Part shown: piece by piece, positions 1,630 to 8,511 of the stretch
How positions within the stretch are numbered: the first letter of the stretch is position 1
Layout of the letters: each line of letters opens with the position of its first letter
IMG/VR virus record: IMGVR_UViG_3300028957_000063
Span: 1-8,511 of that record
Reading direction: 5' to 3' (one strand)
Source: a virus
Lineage: Duplodnaviria > Heunggongvirae > Uroviricota > Caudoviricetes
Length of the DNA: 8,511 bases
Notes under the pieces: generated by a model
Databases searched by the model: none
What the model saw: only the letters and a program-made list of their open reading frames with translations
Told to the model about the DNA's origin: nothing
Translations under genes and position numbers: made by a program

Positions 1630-1640
1630 ACAGTTGAACA

Positions 1641-4016
1641 TTAAGAATCAGCCTGACTCGGGATCAGTTTTTGCCAGATAACTGAAACGTATTTTGCCTG
1701 GTAACGGGCGTCATCAAGTGCATTATGGCGCTCACCTTCGAATGGAATAGCCGTTCTGGCATCGAAGTCTATGGCTTTCCCCAGCTCAACGATTGTGCGT
1801 ACATCGCGATCGTTGTAGTAACGCCACGGGCAGGGGATCCCCTGCCGTTCGTATGAACGGCGCAAAATCGTGTTGTCGAAGTTGGCTCCATTTCCCCAGA
1901 CCTGAACAAAAAATTCACCGGAGTTTTCGTCGATAAATTCCCGCAATTGTAACAGTGCATCATCTAACGGGATTTCATCGGTCATAATGGCAGATTGCGC
2001 TTCGCGTGATTGCTTAAGCCACCATTTAATGGTGTCCCGATCAATGACTCCGCCAGCAGTTTCCAGATCGATAGTCTTACTAAATTCCGGTCCCATATCT
2101 CCGGTTTGCGGATCGAAAAATATTGCACCTATTGAGATGATCGGGGCATCAGGATTTTTTCCCATGGTTTCAAGGTCGATCATTAGATGGTCACACGTCC
2201 TGCTGGTGGATGTGATTTCGTGATGACCGTTCACCGCAATTAAGGGATCTGCCGTCTCGCCAGTTTCATTATCGCTATTGTGATGCTGATTGCCGCCAGT
2301 GTTCTCCTTGTGTGGATGTTCAGCGCCTTCCATTTCCTCCGGATCATTTTCCTGAACTTCAACCTGATTCTCTTCATTGAATGTTTCCTGGTATGTTGCG
2401 TCGCCCATCACCGCGCCACAATCAGGGCAGTTGCCGCCACCGCTCTGACCGCAGGCGGTGCAGACTTTTTCCGTTTCTTGTTGGTTCTGGTTCACTGAAT
2501 CGCGGATTTCAATCCCCTTCACCCATTTCGGATCATTCGGGTCGCTAATTCCTGCAACAAATTCACCGCGAGAGGCCGCAAGCAACTTATCGGCGTCAGG
2601 CTGGCTGATATTGGCTGCCTGCATAATTTTGTTTACTTCGTCAGCGGTAACTTTTACCGGCTCTGGTTGTGCGGTCGTGTCAGATGCACCAGTATTTTGT
2701 TGTGAACCTGAGTACGTGCCGTTTTTACGTGCGAAGTATTCCTCTTTTGTGATTTCCGTAGCTCCCAAGGCCAGTGCTTTTTCCAGACCAGAAAGTTTGT
2801 TTGCGCGACCGTATTTTTCGCCGTCCTTATCGGTGAAAAGGAAATAGAACGGCCCCTCTCGTTCTACAGATGATTCGGCTTCCACTTCGCATTCGGTTTT
2901 TTCGTTGTTCGGCATTGCCGTTTCCACTGCATCAGCTTCTGGTACTGGCGACGGGAGAGTATCAGTTGCGCTCTGATTTGTTCCTTCATCTTCAAACACG
3001 CCCTTTGTAGTCAGGTATTCAGTGATGTATTTGTTCAGCGCCACAGGATCTTTGTGAATGTCGATCGGACGTTCACGAACGAGGCCGAAAATAGTCTGGC
3101 AGCTGTAGTGAAGCGCATCAGGCTGTTTGCGCATTGATGCGGAGATGCGCTTCCAGTCTTCGCGATCCTTGTCGATAACTTCATTTTTTGCCCAGCGATG
3201 GATGCTGCCGTCAATGTTTCCTGCATCAATATCACCAGGCCAGAGAGCGCAGGCCAGTTCTTCATCCAGTGTTTTCCATGTCTGCTTGTATTCGCGACGA
3301 ATGGCGGCAGTGGCGGGGTTGATTTTTCCTGCTGAGTTTTCAGTGTGCTGCCGGTTGACTCTGGCGCGGGCAAGATCAACAACAGACGTGTATTTCCCGG
3401 TTTCTTTGCGTTCGGCTTCGCGACGTTTTTTCCAGGTGCGTAATTCTGTCTGGATCTCAGGCCATTTTGCACCCGGCTTACATTTATGTTTAACCCACCC
3501 GATGGCGAGCAGTTTTAGTTCTGAATACATGACGTTAACTTCAGGCATTTTCATCAATGCCTCAACGATATGCCCGTCGAATGTTGCCATGTCCTCCTGC
3601 AACAATTCCTGTGCACTAATCACCATATCAACGGTGATGTTTTCACATGTACCGAACTTAACCAGGACCGCGTTCTGTACTTCAAGGGACAGCTTGTCAA
3701 AATTGACGTTCATCGGATCGGATTCTGGTTCGACCGGAACAAAGGAAGCGCCTTCCTCATCCCAGCGGTTTTCCAGCATATATTCGGTATCCCAGGAGTC
3801 GATGGCAGGGCGGGGCATGCCGGGTTTATCCTCGCAGACAAGAAATTTATAAGCGCAGTCCTGAGCAGCCGGATATTGCTCCAGGAATTGCCAGGTAAAT
3901 TTGGCACGGGCGCGGCGTTCGTCGCCGGCTTCAATGGCAGTGGCTACAGCGACTGCACCTTCTTCCTTTATTGCCTGTTCGTCCGGAATGGCGGCGCAAA
4001 TAAAGACTTTACTCAT
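1641..4016 (-). CDS. Large prophage protein (791 aa) with a C-terminal DnaQ-like DEDDh 3'-5' exonuclease domain, a CxxC-x10-CxxC zinc-ribbon motif and an acidic linker. Proteins of this kind are often annotated exodeoxyribonuclease VIII-like.
   Basis: Uninterrupted 2376-nt ORF. Exonuclease motifs read in the translation: MIDLETMG (D-x-E, encoded from 2183 downward), WGNGANFD and HNALDDA (H-x4-D). Cys cluster VCTACGQSGGGNCPDCG is encoded at about 2400-2462. Occupies the position of the recombination module (exo/bet or recE) in lambdoid prophages. Confidence 0.8.
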   Translation of the reverse strand: MSKVFICAAIPDEQAIKEEGAVAVATAIEAGDERRARAKFTWQFLEQYPAAQDCAYKFLVCEDKPGMPRPAIDSWDTEYMLENRWDEEGASFVPVEPESDPMNVNFDKLSLEVQNAVLVKFGTCENITVDMVISAQELLQEDMATFDGHIVEALMKMPEVNVMYSELKLLAIGWVKHKCKPGAKWPEIQTELRTWKKRREAERKETGKYTSVVDLARARVNRQHTENSAGKINPATAAIRREYKQTWKTLDEELACALWPGDIDAGNIDGSIHRWAKNEVIDKDREDWKRISASMRKQPDALHYSCQTIFGLVRERPIDIHKDPVALNKYITEYLTTKGVFEDEGTNQSATDTLPSPVPEADAVETAMPNNEKTECEVEAESSVEREGPFYFLFTDKDGEKYGRANKLSGLEKALALGATEITKEEYFARKNGTYSGSQQNTGASDTTAQPEPVKVTADEVNKIMQAANISQPDADKLLAASRGEFVAGISDPNDPKWVKGIEIRDSVNQNQQETEKVCTACGQSGGGNCPDCGAVMGDATYQETFNEENQVEVQENDPEEMEGAEHPHKENTGGNQHHNSDNETGETADPLIAVNGHHEITSTSRTCDHLMIDLETMGKNPDAPIISIGAIFFDPQTGDMGPEFSKTIDLETAGGVIDRDTIKWWLKQSREAQSAIMTDEIPLDDALLQLREFIDENSGEFFVQVWGNGANFDNTILRRSYERQGIPCPWRYYNDRDVRTIVELGKAIDFDARTAIPFEGERHNALDDARYQAKYVSVIWQKLIPSQADS

Positions 4017-4096
4017 TTTGTTTTAACCTCATTACAGATTTAAGGGTGAACAAATCCCTGCCATTGCTGGCATATAAAAATGAAACCGGATATTAA

Positions 4097-4300
4097 TTAC
4101 GGTGCTGTTTTAAGTCCTGCCGGGATTTCGTTATTGTCCATGCGAATAACTTTATCAACCGGATAACAGTTGCCGGGAATTTTCTGTTCCGCTGCGGCAG
4201 CCATGCATTCTTTCATTGAGTCATGTATACCAATAACAAGATCGACTGGTTCGCCTGTATTAAGAAAAACTGTCAGAACGAGTGCAAATGCTGTATTCAT
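4097..4300 (-). CDS. Hypothetical small protein (67 aa from MNTAFALVLTVFLNTG...) with a hydrophobic N-terminus, possibly signal-peptide or membrane associated
   Basis: ATG at 4298-4300 is preceded by AAAGGA. The upstream ORF's stop lies 2 nt before this ATG, suggesting translational coupling. Function unknown. Confidence 0.5.
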   Translation of the reverse strand: MNTAFALVLTVFLNTGEPVDLVIGIHDSMKECMAAAAEQKIPGNCYPVDKVIRMDNNEIPAGLKTAP

Positions 4301-4302
4301 TG

Positions 4303-4485
4303 TCAGCGTCCTTTTTGCATCAGGCGTAAACGGGCCAGCATTGAAACAATGCATATTTGATTTAATAGCTCCCGTTCGTGTTTTCTCTTATTAATGGCAT
4401 CTTCAGTAAATACAGGGTTACTGATTCTGACACCAATTTCAAAACAACCTTCAGACGTATTGACGTTTGGTAATAACGTTTCCAT
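4303..4485 (-). CDS. Hypothetical small protein (60 aa)
   Basis: ATG at 4483-4485 with a GAGGA Shine-Dalgarno sequence about 7 nt upstream. Co-oriented with and tightly coupled to the next small ORF. No family recognised. Confidence 0.5.
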   Translation of the reverse strand: METLLPNVNTSEGCFEIGVRISNPVFTEDAINKRKHERELLNQICIVSMLARLRLMQKGR

Positions 4486-4502
4486 TATCGCGTCCTCAAC
4501 AA

Positions 4503-4662
4503 TGAATTTTGTGATGCGGTGCCTGGTGCCTCCAGGTGACGTTAACCAGTTAACAATTAACGCCGGATACAGGGAAACCCATAAACACCCGATACGGGGG
4601 AACTAATCGCTTTTTAACTGTTCCGCGTGCGCTGAGCCGCATTCACCGCATCACAAAATTCA
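4503..4662. repeat. Perfect 19-bp inverted repeat pair flanking a 122-bp core
   Basis: TGAATTTTGTGATGCGGTG at 4503-4521 is the exact reverse complement of 4644-4662. The core contains hairpin CCTGG-TGCCT-CCAGG (4522-4536) and three closely spaced TTAAC/GTTAAC copies (4550-4570). Confidence 0.7.
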
Positions 4663-4665
4663 CTT

Positions 4666-4712
4666 TAAAAAGGGCGGGTATCACAAGGGAAAACAAAAAA
4701 CGGATACCCGCC
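4666..4712 (-). terminator. Candidate intrinsic terminator for leftward transcription (tL-like)
   Basis: 10-bp GC-rich stem (4673-4682 pairs with 4703-4712) with a 20-nt loop, followed on the minus strand by C then TTTTT (complement of 4667-4671). The loop is long and the U-tract short, so this is tentative. Confidence 0.35.
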
Positions 4713-5052
4713 AAAAGGTAATCAACATGGGTTGTTGTAGCGGGGTTGTCACTCAGGCGTATGGTCAACCTGACAACCCGGTGCCACCAATGGGGGTAAG
4801 GAATAACCCCGCCATACTTACCGCCGCGCCATTTCGCGGATTGCCACAACCGGAAGCGCACGGTCGACGAAAATTTAACGACAGGCTATCTATGAACCAG
4901 CTACCTCGCCGTGCGCTTTCGCGTTATGCCCTGACTTTTCAGGGATATATCCTTTCAGTAAACTGTCAGTGCCGGATGTTCACCCGTGTCCGGCGCACGC
5001 ACTCCACTTCACCCGTGGAGAACTCCTTAATTACCAACCCTCAGGAGGGTGA

Positions 5053-5286
5053 ATGTTAAAATCAACTCTTATTGCTAAATGCCTTTATCAAAATCGCATG
5101 GTAAGCAGCATTTCAATAGGCGAGTCTGCAGTTAAAAGTATTTTCGAAGAGTACTTTCCCGGGCATGATTTTAATAAATGGAATACCAAATTACCGCCAG
5201 CAGTTTCAACGCGTATTCTGAAAGCAACTGAAAGAGCAAGTACAATTCGCGTTAACTATTTCATTAAAGATTTGTGGGATCTTTGA
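5053..5286 (+). CDS. Hypothetical small protein (77 aa), encoded opposite to the surrounding leftward operon
   Basis: Strong Shine-Dalgarno AGGAGG 4-5 nt upstream of ATG 5053. AT-rich codon usage unlike the flanking DNA (by eye). Its 3' end overlaps the convergent 135-aa ORF by 23 nt. No family recognised. Confidence 0.45.
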   Translation: MLKSTLIAKCLYQNRMVSSISIGESAVKSIFEEYFPGHDFNKWNTKLPPAVSTRILKATERASTIRVNYFIKDLWDL

Positions 5287-5671
5287 TATCCACAGAGCCT
5301 AAAGTATGTGCATATGGATGTGCTATTGTGCGCCCTCGCAGATTTGCATCATTTTCTAAATTCACTGAACGAAACAGGGCATCAACAAGGCTCTGTACAA
5401 TGCAAAGGCAATCGAAGACTGTCGCCGTTTCTGTTTTGATTGATGAAAGAACATGGCCATTCACGCAAACAGAAATTACCCGTTTATTAACATCGCTTTC
5501 CTGCTTTTGATTATCAGAACCATATAGCCCAGAAAAAGCATTGCGCACATTACAAACCATATTATCGATGGTTTCTTTTTTGGTGTATGCCGGGTCAATT
5601 TTCACCAGACTATCACCGAGAGTCGTTGCAGCAATTGTCTGGATTTCTTTTGGTAAATCTTTAAATTCCAT
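5264..5671 (-). CDS. Hypothetical protein (135 aa), in an AT-rich accessory segment
   Basis: ATG at 5669-5671 with GAGG about 8 nt upstream. Starts 22 nt after the stop of the upstream 72-aa ORF. No family recognised. Confidence 0.55.
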   Translation of the reverse strand: MEFKDLPKEIQTIAATTLGDSLVKIDPAYTKKETIDNMVCNVRNAFSGLYGSDNQKQESDVNKRVISVCVNGHVLSSIKTETATVFDCLCIVQSLVDALFRSVNLENDANLRGRTIAHPYAHTLGSVDIKDPTNL

Positions 5672-5693
5672 TATTAGCCTCGTTGGTTAGCTA

Positions 5694-5912
5694 TTAACGT
5701 GGGTATGTAATCATTCTTGCAATGCTTAATGCCGCTGCTTTTTCCAGCCTGGTGATATCCTGCTCCAGAGCGGACAGATTTTCAGCCTGCTTAGCCCTGG
5801 CTTCATTGGCCCATTTCAGATCCTGCGCTGCATTAATTTTCTGGCGCATCCACTCATAAAGTTCATCATCGGTATAGTCTGGCGCGATGATGACGGGTTC
5901 TCGTTTCTGCAT
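5694..5912 (-). CDS. Hypothetical small protein (72 aa)
   Basis: ATG at 5910-5912 preceded by GAGGAA. An in-frame TAA lies just upstream at the gap edge, so it is an independent ORF and not a continuation of the gene broken by the N-run. Confidence 0.55.
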   Translation of the reverse strand: MQKREPVIIAPDYTDDELYEWMRQKINAAQDLKWANEARAKQAENLSALEQDITRLEKAAALSIARMITYPR

Positions 5913-5952
5913 ACTGATTCCTCGCGGTGCTGCTTCGCTTATCAGGCGTTAG

Positions 5953-5987
5953 NNNNNNNNNNNNNNNNNNNNNNNNNNNNNNNNNNN
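5953..5987. other. Run of 35 ambiguous bases (N): assembly gap or masked segment of unknown true length
   Basis: Directly visible in the sequence. Confidence 0.99.
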
Positions 5988-6054
5988 CTTCGCCTTCGGC
6001 AAGGCCTTCGAAGTATTCTTCGTAAGCCTTTTCCATGATTGTGTCGAAATCCAT
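5988..6054 (-). CDS. 5' fragment of a small prophage gene (MDFDTIMEKAYEEYFEGLAEGE...) truncated by the N-run. Possibly a YdaF/DUF1391-like protein, but this is very uncertain.
   Basis: ATG at 6052-6054 with AGGTGA upstream. The preceding gene's TGA ends 1 nt before this ATG. The reading frame runs into the 5953-5987 N-run, so the 3' end is unknown. Confidence 0.35.
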
Positions 6055-6055
6055 A

Positions 6056-6211
6056 TCACTCACCTGAGTTTCTTTCCAGCCAGCGACGGGCACCATTTTC
6101 GGTTTTAAACGTTTTGCTTTTGGTATACGTCATCGCGGTGAATGTGCCGTCCTGGTTGGGAAACACGCCGTACACCAGAGATTCGTTGTTGCCAAGATCG
6201 ATAGTATCCAT
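6056..6211 (-). CDS. Small prophage protein (51 aa, MDTIDLGNNESLVYGVFPNQDGTF...), possibly YdaG-like
   Basis: ATG at 6209-6211 with GAGGT 5 nt upstream. It is the first gene downstream of the putative leftward promoter region. The longer ORF-track start at 6265 has no Shine-Dalgarno sequence. The family guess is from memory only. Confidence 0.5.
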   Translation of the reverse strand: MDTIDLGNNESLVYGVFPNQDGTFTAMTYTKSKTFKTENGARRWLERNSGE

Positions 6212-6265
6212 GTTGACCTCATTTCCCCTTAACGCCGGGGTAGCGGAACTGTTTGCTGAGAACAC

Positions 6266-6414
6266 CGTGCGGTGTCTTGATGAATAAAATTTAGAATAAC
6301 CTAAGGTGGATGGTCAAGGTTTTTGTGTAGAAAAACCTAAGTTTTTTTGATGTAAAAAACACAAGTGTTTGAAAGTTTGTGCTTTTTATTACAGGGTGTG
6401 GAGAAAAAAGGGGG
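6266..6414 (-). promoter_or_regulatory. AT-rich intergenic region downstream of the repressor gene: putative leftward early promoter (pL analogue) with operator-like sites
   Basis: On the minus strand, TTGACC (complement of 6313-6318) is followed about 18 nt later by TAAATT. Operator-like imperfect palindromes at 6289-6306 (ATTTAGAATAACCTAAGG) and 6325-6342 (GTGTAGAAAAACCTAAGT) share the TAG-N6-CTAAG core with the pR-side sites. Confidence 0.4.
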
Positions 6415-6822
6415 TTATTTGTTTGCGCTTCTTTTGCGAGCTTTGAGTAGTTCTTCAAAAAGTTTGTTGAAATTTTCAACTCGAGCACGCATCTCTGACA
6501 ACAGGGCCTTTTGCTCTGACTCAGGCAGTGCGTCGAACAGTTGAAGTAACTCTTTTTGATCTTCTGTCAGAATGGCTGGTTGATTATCCGGGAGCGGTTC
6601 GCCTGGTTGTTTATCTTCATCCCCAAAAAGAAGCCAAGTCGGTGAGCACTGAAGCGCTTGGCTCAGTGCGAATAATCTTTTCCCCGCCGGCTGTGTTTCA
6701 TCTCTTTCCCATTGAGAAATTGTTACGTGAGCCACTTTGACCAGCTTACCTAATGCGGCCTGAGACAGTTTTAATTTTTTACGCCTATGTAAGAGGCGAG
6801 CACCGAAGGTTTCGTTTTTCAT
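6415..6822 (-). CDS. dicA: Prophage repressor, HTH XRE-family, DicA-like (cI analogue), 135 aa
   Basis: N-terminal HTH (LSQAALGKLVKVAHVTISQWER). Strong resemblance from memory to E. coli DicA (blocks such as LFALS..LQCSPTWxLFGDEDKQP and EMRARVxNFNKLFEELLKAR). Divergently arranged with a Cro/DicC-like gene. Confidence 0.85.
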   Translation of the reverse strand: MKNETFGARLLHRRKKLKLSQAALGKLVKVAHVTISQWERDETQPAGKRLFALSQALQCSPTWLLFGDEDKQPGEPLPDNQPAILTEDQKELLQLFDALPESEQKALLSEMRARVENFNKLFEELLKARKRSANK

Positions 6823-6898
6823 ATTAGGGAATTCTAATTTTTCTTGACTTAGGTTTCTCTACGATCTAGTTTCCTTAGGAAAATCTAAGGAGTTCGAT
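6823..6898. promoter_or_regulatory. Divergent promoter/operator region between the repressor and the cro-like gene (oR/pR/pRM analogue)
   Basis: Rightward -35 TTGACT (6844-6849), 17-bp spacer, -10 TAGTTT (6867-6872), then AAGGAG Shine-Dalgarno sequence 6 nt before ATG 6899. Palindrome CCTTAG-GAAAAT-CTAAGG at 6873-6890 and a weaker copy at 6847-6864 overlap the promoter elements. Confidence 0.55.
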
Positions 6899-7126
6899 AT
6901 GTTGAAAATTGATGCTATAGCGTTTTTTGGCAGCAAAACAAAGCTTGCCAATGCCGCAGGAGTTAGGCTGGCAAGCATTGCTGCATGGGGGGAACTGGTT
7001 CCTGAAGGTCGCGCGATGCGCCTGCAAGAGGCATCCGGCGGGGAACTTCAGTACGACCCTAAAGTTTATGACGAATATCGTAAGGCAAAGCGGGCGGGGC
7101 GGTTGAACAATGAAAATCACCCCTGA
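6899..7126 (+). CDS. dicC: Cro-like regulator, DicC/YdaS-like (75 aa)
   Basis: Small ORF divergent from the DicA-like repressor with a strong AAGGAG Shine-Dalgarno sequence. Translation resembles DicC from memory (FGSKTKLA..AG.RLAS...LVPEGRAMRLQEASGGELQYDP...). Confidence 0.8.
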   Translation: MLKIDAIAFFGSKTKLANAAGVRLASIAAWGELVPEGRAMRLQEASGGELQYDPKVYDEYRKAKRAGRLNNENHP

Positions 7127-7661
7127 ACAGGTTTGTGAGGCTCTGGATGCCTGGGTATGCCGACCAGGAATGACACAGGAGCAGGCGACGATATTAATCA
7201 CGGAAGCATTCTGGGCTCTGAAAGAACGCCCGAACATTGATGTTCAACGCGTCACGTTTGATGATGGCGCGGTTGATCAACGGGCACTGGGCGTTAACCG
7301 GGTGAAGATATTCGAACGCTGGAAAGCTATCGACACCAGGGATAAGCGTGAAAAATTCACGGCGCTGATTCCGGCAATTATGGAGGCTATCCGGATCAGC
7401 GATTTCAGGTTGTATTGTGAAATTACTGACGGAAAAAGCATTACGTACATGATCGCCGGGTTAAACAAAGAATATGGCGATGTGGTGGAGTCCGGGCTGC
7501 TTTTTGCGGATCCAGCTGTTGTGGAGCGTGAGACTGACGAGCTTATAGAAAAAGCTATTGCTTTCAAGCATGCGTATCGTCAGCAATACCAACATTACTT
7601 TGCAGATAAACAAATATCTGTCTGGGGTTCGTATGAGTATCGATGCACTACGATGGGCTAA
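7110..7661 (+). CDS. Prophage early regulatory protein at the cII position (183 aa), possibly CII(CP76)-like or YdaT-like
   Basis: ORF starts inside the last codons of the cro-like gene (17-nt overlap, different frame) and ends at TAA 7659-7661. Family assignment is from position and size only. Confidence 0.6.
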   Translation: MKITPEQVCEALDAWVCRPGMTQEQATILITEAFWALKERPNIDVQRVTFDDGAVDQRALGVNRVKIFERWKAIDTRDKREKFTALIPAIMEAIRISDFRLYCEITDGKSITYMIAGLNKEYGDVVESGLLFADPAVVERETDELIEKAIAFKHAYRQQYQHYFADKQISVWGSYEYRCTTMG

Positions 7662-8511
7662 AAAGGTGAAAACCGGCAGTTCATCCAGCAAGTCAGTATT
7701 GACCTGGCTTGCTGATATGTGCGGTGCCGATTTGTGTGCATACCCGTCTGTATCTGCACTGGCAGAAGTAACGGAACTGAACAAAAAGACTGTGCAGGAC
7801 AGCTTACGACACCTGATGGAGATTGGGTTAATTGTTGATACCGGTGAGAGAAAAGGCAGAACAAAGCAAATTGTGGTGTACCGACTTATCGGTGTAGAAG
7901 AAAGTGTTGCCGAGCCTGAATACACCCAAAAACGGGAGTCTTTAAAGGTGGGTAAAATTGGTGCTGTTAATAAAAACAGTACCGAAAATGGTTATGTTTC
8001 AGCACAAAACAGCCCCAAAAACGGAACTCTTAGCTGCATGGAAAATAACCAAAGACACCCAAATTTTCCATCAAAGACACCCAAAAACGGATCACGGAAC
8101 CCAAAGGAACCCAAAGATCTAACCCCCACACATAACGCACGCGAGAGTGCTCCGACCAGTGAGCAGGAAGTTTTGTCGTTACAGGCAGCACCCCCTGTAT
8201 TCCTGGGTGGCCTGAGCGAACCCATCGGAAAATTTCCGATGACCGATAGCTGGTATCCGTCACGGGATTTTCGACGACGGGCTGCGTTGTGGGGGATGGC
8301 TTTGCCGGAGACAGAATTTACACCTGCTGAACTTGCCGCCTTCCGGGACTACTGGGCAGCGGAGGGGAAAGTATTTACGCAGATTCAGTGGGAGCAGAAA
8401 TTCGCCCGTCACGTAAATCACGTCAGGGCGCAGGTTAAACCAGTCAGCAAGGGGGTGAACCATGCAGCAGCACCAGGTGGCACCGCATCACGGGCAGTTC
8501 AGGAAATTCGG
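7633..8511 (+). CDS. Phage replication initiation protein (O-like: N-terminal winged-helix/HTH, C-terminal DnaT-like region), 3' end beyond the window
   Basis: Open frame from ATG 7633 to the window end with no stop (hand-translated: MSIDALRWAKKVKTGSSSSKSVLTWLADMCGADL...). Not in the ORF track, presumably because it has no stop in the window. Overlaps the upstream gene by 29 nt. The C-terminal part (FRDYWAAEGKVFTQIQWEQKFARH) looks like DnaT-type replication proteins. Iteron-like repeats lie in the linker. Confidence 0.75.
   Translation, partial: MSIDALRWAKKVKTGSSSSKSVLTWLADMCGADLCAYPSVSALAEVTELNKKTVQDSLRHLMEIGLIVDTGERKGRTKQIVVYRLIGVEESVAEPEYTQKRESLKVGKIGAVNKNSTENGYVSAQNSPKNGTLSCMENNQRHPNFPSKTPKNGSRNPKEPKDLTPTHNARESAPTSEQEVLSLQAAPPVFLGGLSEPIGKFPMTDSWYPSRDFRRRAALWGMALPETEFTPAELAAFRDYWAAEGKVFTQIQWEQKFARHVNHVRAQVKPVSKGVNHAAAPGGTASRAVQEIR
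7922..8115. repeat. Iteron-like direct repeats inside the replication gene: putative phage origin of replication
   Basis: Core CCCAAAAACGG occurs three times (7925-7935, 8014-8024, 8080-8090). There is a further ACACCCAAA copy at 8055-8063 and a tandem GGAACCCAAA x2 at 8096-8115. The block lies in the linker of the O-like gene, as the ori does in lambda O. Confidence 0.5.

What the first reader, a model, noticed from the sequence alone, without database searches (positions are those of the whole stretch)
4486..5700. Accessory island with convergent AT-rich small ORFs at the ral/sieB-equivalent position
Between the recombination-module small genes and the leftward early genes there is a stretch that breaks the operon's single-strand organisation. 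A 77-aa ORF on the plus strand with a near-perfect Shine-Dalgarno sequence (AGGAGG) converges on a 135-aa minus-strand ORF, with 23 bp of 3' overlap. Both look AT-rich compared with their surroundings (by eye) and I recognise neither. In lambda and Rac this position holds exclusion, anti-restriction and toxin genes (ral, sieB, ralR/ralA), so it is a reasonable place for an undescribed exclusion, anti-defence or toxin-antitoxin-like module. The convergent overlap would also allow antisense control.
Basis: partly seen in the sequence, partly recalled or inferred. Interest (0 to 1): 0.7.

Follow-up and report, generated by a model that had tools for sequence, protein, structure and literature searches.

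The report
Convergent two-gene prophage cargo cassette
Two real, conserved, uncharacterised genes that face each other sit in a swappable cargo slot of a Qin/dicBF-type E. coli prophage, at the spot where the Rac prophage carries its exclusion gene sieB; their function is untested, but they are a good candidate for a new phage-versus-phage competition module.

Summary
A 77-aa plus-strand ORF ("A", 5053-5286, AGGAGG Shine-Dalgarno) converges on a 135-aa minus-strand ORF ("B", 5264-5671). They share 23 nt at their 3' ends and are AT-rich (39% GC against 46.5% for the window).

The first 555 nt of the interval (4486-5040) are not island. They are the conserved ydfC-dicF-dicB spacer of a Qin/dicBF-type prophage. 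K-12 Qin lacks only 5041-5693.

A and the C-terminal 76 aa of B ("B-core") form a two-gene cassette found from Enterobacterales to GC-rich environmental phages. It is always convergent, with a 20-51 nt overlap. B always runs with early lytic transcription. A always runs against it, and in one distant relative lies just downstream of cI on its strand.

In E. coli the slot is polymorphic. A conserved 55-aa N-domain is fused to different C-domains, and three of the five C-domain types, plus a B-core variant with an added C-terminal extension, each have their own reverse-strand small gene. None matches a known family, fold or defence model.

Best reading, inferred and not shown: A is made in the lysogen and B on induction or infection, and they antagonise each other in an exclusion/escape logic like sieB. 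Expression and function are untested.

The parts
5053..5286 (+). Gene A: 77 aa plus stop, a stand-alone small soluble protein (PHROG 10348, unknown function).
5043..5048 (+). Shine-Dalgarno AGGAGG of A, 4 nt before the ATG. The homology break with K-12 Qin lies right here, at about 5041.
   Evidence: Sequence. Three-way alignment.
5264..5494 (-). B-core: the C-terminal 76 aa of B (PHROG 23433). This is the part that travels with A.
   Evidence: Aligned with stand-alone 77-79 aa proteins of Dickeya and Serratia and with the C-terminus of a 191-aa Yersinia protein. 91 homologs. pLDDT 73-85 and no PDB analogue. 99% identical to the O157 copy, while whole B is only 84% identical.
5495..5671 (-). 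N-domain of B (about 55-59 aa): a separate mosaic unit shared by proteins with at least five different C-terminal domains at the same locus.
   Evidence: PHROGs 1363, 9419, 2151, 6937 and 33007 all match residues 1-55. Sequences. Contingency table. A divergent patch at 5551-5650 against O157.
5264..5286 (.). 23-nt overlap of the 3' ends of A and B; each stop codon lies inside the other's last codons.
   Evidence: The same geometry occurs in 154 of 165 A+B loci (26 nt in 9; the loci are redundant). Overlaps of 20-51 nt occur in Citrobacter-type and distant GC-rich loci.
4936..4964 (+). Best sigma-70-like candidate promoter for the reverse cargo gene: TTTTCA-17-TAAACT. A prediction only.
   Evidence: Joint top PWM score (10.5) on the + strand of 4400-5060. 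Its -10 element and the downstream inverted repeat precede all four different reverse genes at this slot; the -35 element is visible only in the window and L150 rows. The stricter consensus scan did not report it.
4971..4994 (.). Inverted repeat GCCGGA-N12-TCCGGC upstream of A, conserved with compensatory changes in other genera.
   Evidence: Variants GCCGGG/CCCGGC (Serratia) and GCCTG(A)/(T)CAGGC (Yersinia, Proteus, others) lie 44-47 nt before the ATG. Also present in K-12, which lacks A. Its 3' arm is deleted in the L061-type copies.
4486..5040 (-). Conserved ydfC-dicF-dicB spacer of the dicBF operon. Not part of the island.
   Evidence: 87% identity over 554 nt to K-12 Qin. Present at >=80% coverage in 3489 of 5426 E. 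coli genomes.
4668..4738 (-). Element at the DicF position: single-stranded 5' part, then a terminator hairpin (4673-4712) and a U-run. Its sequence differs from DicF.
   Evidence: Alignment. Fold -21.5 kcal/mol, z = -5.1. Rfam DicF gives no hit in the window but 76.7 bits in K-12. Present in about 157 E. coli genomes, unannotated.
4508..4660 (-). dicB leader, a partial STnc100-like match below Rfam's gathering score.
   Evidence: 34.3 bits against a gathering score of 47, E = 1.3e-4.
4303..4485 (-). dicB (flank): cell-division inhibitor, downstream in the early operon.
   Evidence: Pfam DicB 1.5e-37. NCBIfam 2.6e-37.
5694..5912 (-). ydfC (flank), immediately upstream of B in the early operon.
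   Evidence: RefSeq annotation of near-identical loci. PHROG 1744.

Best explanation
This is a conserved two-gene cassette of temperate phages. It sits in a polymorphic cargo slot of a Qin/dicBF-type prophage, between ydfC and the dicF-dicB part of the DicA-repressed early operon.

B (its core domain) is transcribed with the early lytic operon, so it is made only on induction or infection. A lies on the opposite strand behind its own 5' region, so it can be made while the prophage is repressed, as is known for sieB in Rac, lambda and P22.

Proposed mechanism (inferred): A and B-core are a cognate antagonistic protein pair. The lysogen-made partner acts against incoming related phages or against leaky early expression. 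The early-made partner lets the phage itself escape or override this on induction. The direction, meaning which one is effector and which is antidote, is not resolved.

Convergent transcription across the whole A gene adds mutual interference. In this E. coli context it would also damp read-through into the toxic dicF-dicB genes.

Shown: anatomy, conservation, linkage, orientation rules and slot polymorphism. Inferred: expression pattern, protein-protein antagonism and any exclusion phenotype.
For: 1. Linkage. In 165 of the 174 sequences scanned (173 fetched loci plus the window; redundant), A and B-core are adjacent and convergent, overlapping by 23 nt in 154 and 26 nt in 9. The same pairing recurs in Citrobacter-type copies, where A is about 35% identical. 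It recurs again in GC-rich and environmental loci L179, L181, L190-193, L195 and L196.

2. Flanks change while the pair stays. The flanks are ydfC and the dicF spacer in E. coli, cI/OL and yfdP in Serratia, and cro in L195/L196.

3. Orientation rule. In Serratia L005 the operator repeats lie between cI and B, so B is the first gene after OL/PL. In L195 and L196, B follows cro. In L193, A lies just downstream of cI and a second S24 gene on the same strand.

4. Recombination unit. Against the O157 copy, window 4800-5550 (the A 5' region, A, B-core and part of the N-domain) is about 98-100% identical, apart from one 50-nt bin at 92%. Both flanks drop to 44-84%. A is 100% identical, B-core 99% and whole B 84%.

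5. Cognate cassettes. Among 81 N-domain loci, the B-core tail goes with A, B' with A', and the 208-212 aa type with rev69/73. The single 179-aa locus carries rev80/84. No cross-combinations occur. All four reverse genes are preceded by the same -10 candidate and inverted repeat.

6. Positional analogy with sieB in Rac.

7. Both are genuine proteins: A has pLDDT 96.7 and dN/dS is below 1 where dS could be estimated.

8. The neighbourhood attracts defence cargo: a PDC-S42 gene sits between cI and B in L003.
Against: - There are no expression data.
- In E. coli the promoter for A is only a PWM candidate. The stricter scan found none.
- The -10-like TGnTATCTT conserved in other genera is replaced in E. 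coli.
- A occurs without a detectable B in L013, L178, L180, L183, L184 and L189.
- B-core occurs with a different partner (the 201-aa variant with A') and without A in L159 and L166. So the pairing is strong but not obligate.
- Adjacent, physically overlapping genes are expected to be co-inherited to some extent even without functional coupling.
- No PADLOC, Pfam or NCBIfam model points to defence.
Confidence: 0.4

Rival explanations
1. A and B are functionally unrelated. B-core is an ordinary early gene. A is a solitary lysogenic-conversion gene (moron) that landed next to it. They stay together only because their 3' ends overlap physically.
For: The slot after B-core can hold other reverse genes: A' in the 201-aa variant, and a 147-148 aa reverse gene in Citrobacter loci that also carry an A-like ORF. 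A occurs without B in several distant loci. Two of the forward C-domain types have no reverse partner.
Against: The pair persists down to about 30-35% identity in phages with different immunity-region layouts, which is unusual for unrelated accessory genes in mosaic genomes. The forward C-domains that have a reverse gene each have their own one, with no cross-combinations. The recombination block contains both genes.
Confidence: 0.25
2. A is a small regulator of the lysis-lysogeny decision or of the early operon, possibly autoregulated through the inverted repeat in its 5' region. B is its early-expressed anti-regulator, working like an antirepressor rather than an exclusion system.
For: The cassette always lies within a gene or a few genes of the cI/cro switch. 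A conserved inverted repeat with compensatory changes lies 44-59 nt upstream of the ATG. In L193 A lies just downstream of cI and a second S24 gene on the same strand.
Confidence: 0.13
3. The RNA level is the point. Convergent transcription from the reverse promoter interferes with or silences the early operon, here keeping dicF-dicB off. The A reading frame is secondary.
For: No intrinsic terminator separates the two genes, so early transcripts must cross all of A in antisense to reach dicF-dicB. The reverse 5' region is kept even in K-12, where no cargo gene follows it.
Against: A is conserved as a protein: the family is almost all 74-80 aa, W43 is invariant, dN/dS is 0.07-0.38 where estimable, and pLDDT is 96.7. 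Four unrelated reverse proteins occupy the slot, each intact.
Confidence: 0.1
4. A and B are a type II toxin-antitoxin (addiction) pair.
For: They are two small adjacent genes with opposite net charge in this copy: A has pI 9.5 and B has pI 5.5. Prophage early regions do carry such modules, for example a HigB-like pair in L198.
Against: The genes are convergent, not co-transcribed. B sits under the repressed early promoter, so a lysogen would hold A alone. No toxin or antitoxin domain is found in Pfam or NCBIfam. The charge contrast is not conserved in the family. Both A-only and B-only loci exist.
Confidence: 0.07

Closest known systems
sieB of Rac, lambda and P22 (superinfection exclusion B; in P22 with its escape product Esc)
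   Same: Like sieB in Rac, A is a single reverse-oriented gene inside the leftward early operon, lying between the repressor-side small genes and a toxic small-protein gene (kilR in Rac, dicB here). It is convergent with its neighbour and overlaps it at the 3' end: ydaF-sieB by 4 nt in Rac. From established knowledge, sieB is expressed from the prophage and P22 carries its own escape function.
   Different: No sequence similarity: Pfam and NCBIfam give no SieB hit. Rac SieB is 162 aa with clear hydrophobic segments (maximum KD 2.19), whereas A is 77 aa and soluble (maximum KD 0.59). From established knowledge, Esc is an internal product of sieB itself, not a separate convergent gene.
Immunity-region exclusion genes expressed with the repressor (lambda rexAB, HK022 nun, BTP1 bstA)
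   Same: The cassette always lies within a gene or a few genes of the cI/cro switch. In L193 A lies just downstream of cI on the same strand, much as rexAB follows cI. A PADLOC candidate defence gene (PDC-S42) sits between cI and B in L003.
   Different: No homology to any of them. In this window A is not next to the repressor but about 1.1 kb downstream, inside the dicBF operon and antisense to it.
Polymorphic toxin-immunity cassettes (CDI/Rhs type: conserved N-terminal part, variable C-terminal domain, cognate small gene next to it)
   Same: A conserved 55-aa N-domain is fused to at least five unrelated C-terminal domains at one locus. Three of those types, plus the B-core+B' variant, are accompanied by their own small partner gene.
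   Different: The partner is on the opposite strand. No recognised toxin, trafficking or secretion domain is present. The proteins are small (124-212 aa). Outside E. coli, B-core usually occurs without this N-domain, mostly as a stand-alone protein.
Qin dicBF operon (ydfABC-dicF-dicB) of E. coli K-12
   Same: The window is this operon: dicA, dicC, ydfA/B/C, the dicF spacer and dicB are all present and in the same order.
   Different: The window has a 653-bp insertion (A plus B) between ydfC and the spacer. The DicF sRNA sequence itself is replaced by a different hairpin/terminator element.

Membership tests
SieB superinfection-exclusion family | Sequence membership (Pfam/NCBIfam SieB models) | tested here: not met
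   No Pfam or NCBIfam hit for A or B at E<=0.1.
SieB superinfection-exclusion family | Membrane protein with hydrophobic segments | tested here: not met
   A has a maximum Kyte-Doolittle(19) of 0.59 and no window above 1.6. Rac SieB reaches 2.19 with 10 such windows.
SieB superinfection-exclusion family | Reverse orientation inside the early-left operon, between the repressor-proximal small genes and a toxic small-protein gene (kilR in Rac, dicB here) | tested here: met
   Rac layout; window layout. This is a resemblance of position, not of family.
SieB superinfection-exclusion family | Expressed from the repressed prophage and aborts superinfecting phage | not testable with these tools
   Needs lysogen transcriptomics and plating assays.
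Type II toxin-antitoxin module | Two genes co-transcribed as one operon | tested here: not met
   The genes are convergent with overlapping 3' ends, and this holds in all related loci.
Type II toxin-antitoxin module | Recognisable toxin or antitoxin domain | tested here: not met
   None found in Pfam, NCBIfam or PADLOC.
Known anti-phage defence systems (PADLOC-DB v2) | Match to a defence-system protein model | tested here: not met
   0 families for A and for B. The positive control in the same call, the 307-aa L003 protein, hit PDC-S42 at 1.2e-85.
Polymorphic toxin-immunity locus | Conserved N-terminal region with variable C-terminal domains at one locus | tested here: met
   Five C-domain types follow the same N-domain.
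Polymorphic toxin-immunity locus | Each C-terminal domain type has its own adjacent small partner gene | tested here: inconclusive
   This holds for three of the five C-domain types and for the B-core+B' variant, with no cross-combinations; one of these pairings rests on a single locus. But the partner is on the opposite strand, and two types have no partner.
Polymorphic toxin-immunity locus | Recognised toxin domain or secretion/trafficking domain | tested here: not met
   No Pfam hit above noise for any C-domain.
DicF sRNA (Rfam RF00039), for the element at 4668-4738 | Match to the DicF covariance model | tested here: not met
   No DicF hit in the window at E<=1. K-12 scores 76.7 bits against a gathering score of 48.
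DicF sRNA (Rfam RF00039), for the element at 4668-4738 | Position between ydfC and dicB, ending in an intrinsic terminator | tested here: met
   Same register in the alignment. Hairpin plus U-run, z = -5.1.

The most novel reading that the evidence does not exclude
A/B and its sister cassettes (A'/B', rev69 with the 208-aa type, rev80 with the 179-aa type) are a previously unrecognised class of polymorphic, convergently encoded effector-antagonist pairs in temperate-phage early operons. One partner is made by the lysogen and the other by the lytic programme. Cassette swapping sets which related phages can superinfect or escape, so the class would be a phage-phage incompatibility system built on new protein folds.
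Probability: 0.25. Interest if true: 0.75.

Novelty: new member of a known kind. Interest (0 to 1): 0.5.

Why it matters
The cassette is in 646 of 5426 complete E. coli genomes, including O157:H7, O26, O111, O121 and O145 STEC lineages. It sits right next to the prophage genetic switch and upstream of the toxic dicF-dicB genes. Even so, both genes are annotated only as hypothetical.

If A and B are a cognate exclusion/escape pair, they would add a new family to the short list of mechanisms by which lambdoid prophages, including those co-resident with Stx phages, police superinfection. They would also bring a confidently predicted fold with no known analogue.

The polymorphic slot, with its shared reverse 5' region and swappable partner pairs, gives a ready-made set of specificity controls. 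The hypothesis is therefore cheap to test: four cassettes and cross-complementation.

Tried and rejected
- **Basic, nucleic-acid-binding A.** The window's A has pI 9.5, but the family median is 5.5 and only 22% are basic. Dropped.
- **SD-sequestering hairpin in the A leader.** Several variants show anti-SD/SD arms with apparent compensatory changes. RNAalifold on the MAFFT alignment found no consensus structure. Pairing probability of the SD window is 0.48 against 0.41 for shuffled upstream sequence. Inconclusive, not claimed.
- **The conserved TGnTATCTT as the promoter of A.** It is the top PWM hit in five other genera. In E. coli it is replaced by CACCCGTGGAGAACT, and it overlaps the putative anti-SD arm. 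Left open.
- **Locus retrieval.** The genome-contig scan gave only 4 loci.
- **Literature.** No paper mentions WP_000920491. The dicBF papers do not describe these ORFs.
Full report
**What the window is**

The minus strand carries, in order:
- an integrase (2-1297) and an excisionase-like gene
- a RecE-type exonuclease (1641-4016)
- DUF1482 (4097-4354)
- dicB (4303-4485)
- the region in question
- ydfC (5694-5912), then ydfB/ydfA
- dicA (6415-6822)

dicC (6899-7126) and an ORF at the position where related loci annotate a YdaT-family gene (7110-7661) lie on the plus strand. This is the left arm of a Qin/dicBF-type lambdoid prophage. Over 1633-8511 (74% of the window matched) it is 94.6% identical to the PPompW prophages of STEC, but it has a different integrase. 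In this operon dicBp corresponds to PL and is repressed by DicA (PMC10448788).

**Checking the observation**

- The 77-aa plus-strand ORF (5053-5286) and the 135-aa minus-strand ORF (5264-5671) are as described, with 23 nt shared.
- AGGAGG lies at 5043-5048.
- GC content is 35.9% for A and 39.7% for B, against 46.5% for the window.
4486-5040 has 51.5% GC and is 87% identical over 554 nt to the ydfC-dicF-dicB intergenic region of K-12 Qin. A three-way alignment places the homology break at about 5041, inside the ribosome-binding region of A.
- So, relative to K-12, the window has a 653-bp insertion (5041-5693) that holds exactly A and B.
- The spacer occurs at >=80% coverage in 3489 of 5426 complete E. 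coli genomes. The insertion occurs in 646, including O157:H7, O26, O111 and O145.

**Are they genes?**

- A has homologs, mostly 77 aa, at 55-72% identity in at least seven other enterobacterial genera.
- An exhaustive profile search found 163 clusters at 50% identity. Nearly all are stand-alone proteins of 74-80 aa. W43 is invariant, and C10, L11, F31 and I71 are nearly so.
- Where synonymous divergence could be estimated, dN/dS between genera is 0.07-0.38 for A and 0.18-0.44 for the B core; several A pairs are saturated.
- The AlphaFold2 model of A is a five-helix bundle with pLDDT 96.7.
- B is modelled less well overall (pLDDT 68.6), with 73-85 over most of its C-terminal domain.

**Is anything known about them?**

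**B is a fusion**

- Residues 1-55 match five different PHROGs that have different C-termini.
- Residues 60-135 ("B-core") align with stand-alone 77-79 aa proteins of Dickeya and Serratia, and with the C-terminus of a 191-aa Yersinia protein.
- A profile search found 91 B-core relatives, mostly 75-90 aa. Some are fused to a ClpX-type zinc finger.

**The pair is a cassette**

- In every locus fetched through distant A homologs, A converges on a B-core gene with the same 23-nt overlap; in Yersinia it is 26 nt.
- The scan covered 173 fetched loci plus the window. Many are redundant E. coli copies, some fetched twice. Of these, 165 have both genes and all 165 are convergent. The overlap is 23 nt in 154 and 26 nt in 9. 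In the remaining 2, A is frameshifted.
- The exceptions:
  - four E. coli loci with a 201-aa B variant
  - L159 and L166, which have B only
  - L013, a distant Psychrosphaera copy with A only
  - one contig end
- More divergent A relatives show the same arrangement. Citrobacter prophages have an A-like ORF (a PHROG 10348 member) overlapping B by 51 nt. GC-rich and environmental loci L179, L181, L190-193, L195 and L196 have a recognisable B-like ORF overlapping A by 20-38 nt in the intact copies.
- Six distant loci have A with no detectable B.

**Orientation rule**

- In Serratia L005 the operator repeats (GTTTGTATATCAAAAC and variants) lie at OR and in the 233-bp gap between cI and B. So B is the first gene after OL/PL and A is antisense to the PL transcript.
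- Citrobacter has the same layout.
- In L195 and L196 the order is cI, divergent cro, B, then convergent A.
- In L193, A lies just downstream of cI and a second S24 gene on the same strand, and B converges on them.
- In the window, B is in the DicA-repressed dicBF operon and A is antisense to it.
- In every layout, B runs with early lytic transcription and A runs against it.

**The E. coli slot is polymorphic**

Classifying 81 contigs that carry the N-domain gene gave these classes:

| Forward gene (N-domain plus ...) | Reverse partner | Loci |
|---|---|---|
| B-core, 135 aa | A, 77 aa | 42, plus 2 with disrupted A |
| B-core plus an extra C-terminal extension B', 201 aa | A', 63-66 aa (PHROG 2605), 23-nt overlap in L150 | 5, plus 2 disrupted |
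| 208-212 aa type | rev69/73, 69-73 aa (PHROG 4274) | 12, plus 4 with no reverse gene detected (at least one at a contig end) |
| 179-aa type | rev80/84, 80-84 aa zinc-ribbon-like (PHROG 10133) | 1 |
| 129-aa type | none | 12 |
| 124-aa type | none | 1 |

- No cross-combinations were seen.
- All four reverse genes are preceded by the same conserved sequence: the TAAACT -10 candidate and the inverted repeat GCCGGA-N12-TCCGGC. A cassette-specific leader and ribosome-binding site follow. K-12 keeps this sequence with no cargo behind it.
- Against the O157 copy, window 4800-5550 is about 98-100% identical, apart from one 50-nt bin at 92%, while both flanks fall to 44-84%. The A 5' region, A and B-core therefore move as one block.

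**Expression signals (weak point)**

- The strict consensus scan found no promoter for A.
- A PWM scan gives TTTTCA-17-TAAACT (4936-4964) as the joint best plus-strand candidate.
- In other genera the best candidate is a conserved TGnTATCTT element about 32 nt before the ATG. Its -35-like box lies inside the inverted repeat. In E. coli this element is replaced.
- The inverted repeat shows compensatory changes between lineages: GCCGGA/TCCGGC, GCCGGG/CCCGGC and GCCTG/CAGGC. But a common E. coli variant has lost its 3' arm through a 29-nt deletion between TTCACCCGTG repeats.
- A possible SD-sequestering hairpin was not distinguishable from shuffled controls.
- No intrinsic terminator separates A and B. 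Early transcripts must therefore cross all of A in antisense to reach dicF-dicB.

**Comparison with the known**

- In Rac, sieB is the one reverse-oriented gene between ydaF and kilR, and it overlaps ydaF by 4 nt. A occupies the equivalent position.
- A is not a SieB. There is no model hit, and it has no hydrophobic segment: maximum KD 0.59 against 2.19 for Rac SieB.
- A classical toxin-antitoxin pair is unlikely. The genes are convergent, and B is under a repressed promoter, so lysogens would hold A alone.
- The conserved-N/variable-C layout with a partner gene recalls polymorphic toxin-immunity loci, but no toxin or trafficking domain is present.

**Conclusion**

It is a widely conserved, convergently overlapping two-gene cassette of unknown function, in a polymorphic slot that is positionally analogous to sieB. 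The most likely logic is a lysogen-made partner and an early-made partner that antagonise each other (confidence 0.4). The main rival is simple co-inheritance of unrelated neighbours (0.25). Nothing here shows expression or phenotype.

Noticed in passing
window 4668-4738 (-): At the exact DicF position the window carries a different element. The 5' single-stranded part and the hairpin loop share little with DicF, but it has a strong terminator hairpin (z = -5.1). Rfam DicF does not hit it. The variant is in about 157 complete E. coli genomes (O121, O55:H7 and others) and is unannotated. It could be an sRNA with a different target set.
   Followed up: partly
window 4508-4660 (-): The dicB leader gives a partial STnc100 (RF02076) match: 34.3 bits, below the gathering score of 47.
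   Followed up: no
window 5953-5987: A run of 35 N (masked or unknown bases) lies inside the ydfB/ydfA region, so those ORFs read as X in translation.
   Followed up: no
window 4979-5017: Two direct repeats of TTCACCCGTG, 29 nt apart. A common E. coli variant (L061 type, 12 contigs) lacks the 29 nt between them. That deletion removes the 3' arm of the inverted repeat upstream of A.
   Followed up: partly
L003 5713-6636 (-): A 307-aa gene inserted between cI and B in a Serratia prophage matches the PADLOC candidate defence family PDC-S42 (1.2e-85). The neighbourhood therefore also takes up defence cargo.
   Followed up: partly
L198 821-1488 (-): A HigB-toxin/HTH pair sits between the repressor gene and ydfC in another E. 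coli dicBF-type prophage.
   Followed up: no
L005 4850-4931: A 19-nt inverted repeat (95% complementary, 44-nt loop) encloses the start codon and ribosome-binding site of the yfdP-like early gene just beyond A. It may be a translational control element on the early transcript.
   Followed up: no
L174 3501-3920 (+); proteins P0152-P0156: In some Citrobacter prophages B-core is fused to an N-terminal ClpX-type C4 zinc finger (PF06689). This may hint at a link to ClpXP recognition.
   Followed up: no
L007 4497-4624 (-): An Rfam tRNA hit (38.5 bits) spans 128 nt, an unusually long span, between the yfdP-like gene and A in a Yersinia prophage.
   Followed up: no
window 4460-4488 (+): A promoter-like site, TTGACG-17-CATTAT, lies antisense within the 5' end of dicB and points into the dicF spacer. 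It ties for the best plus-strand PWM score.
   Followed up: no
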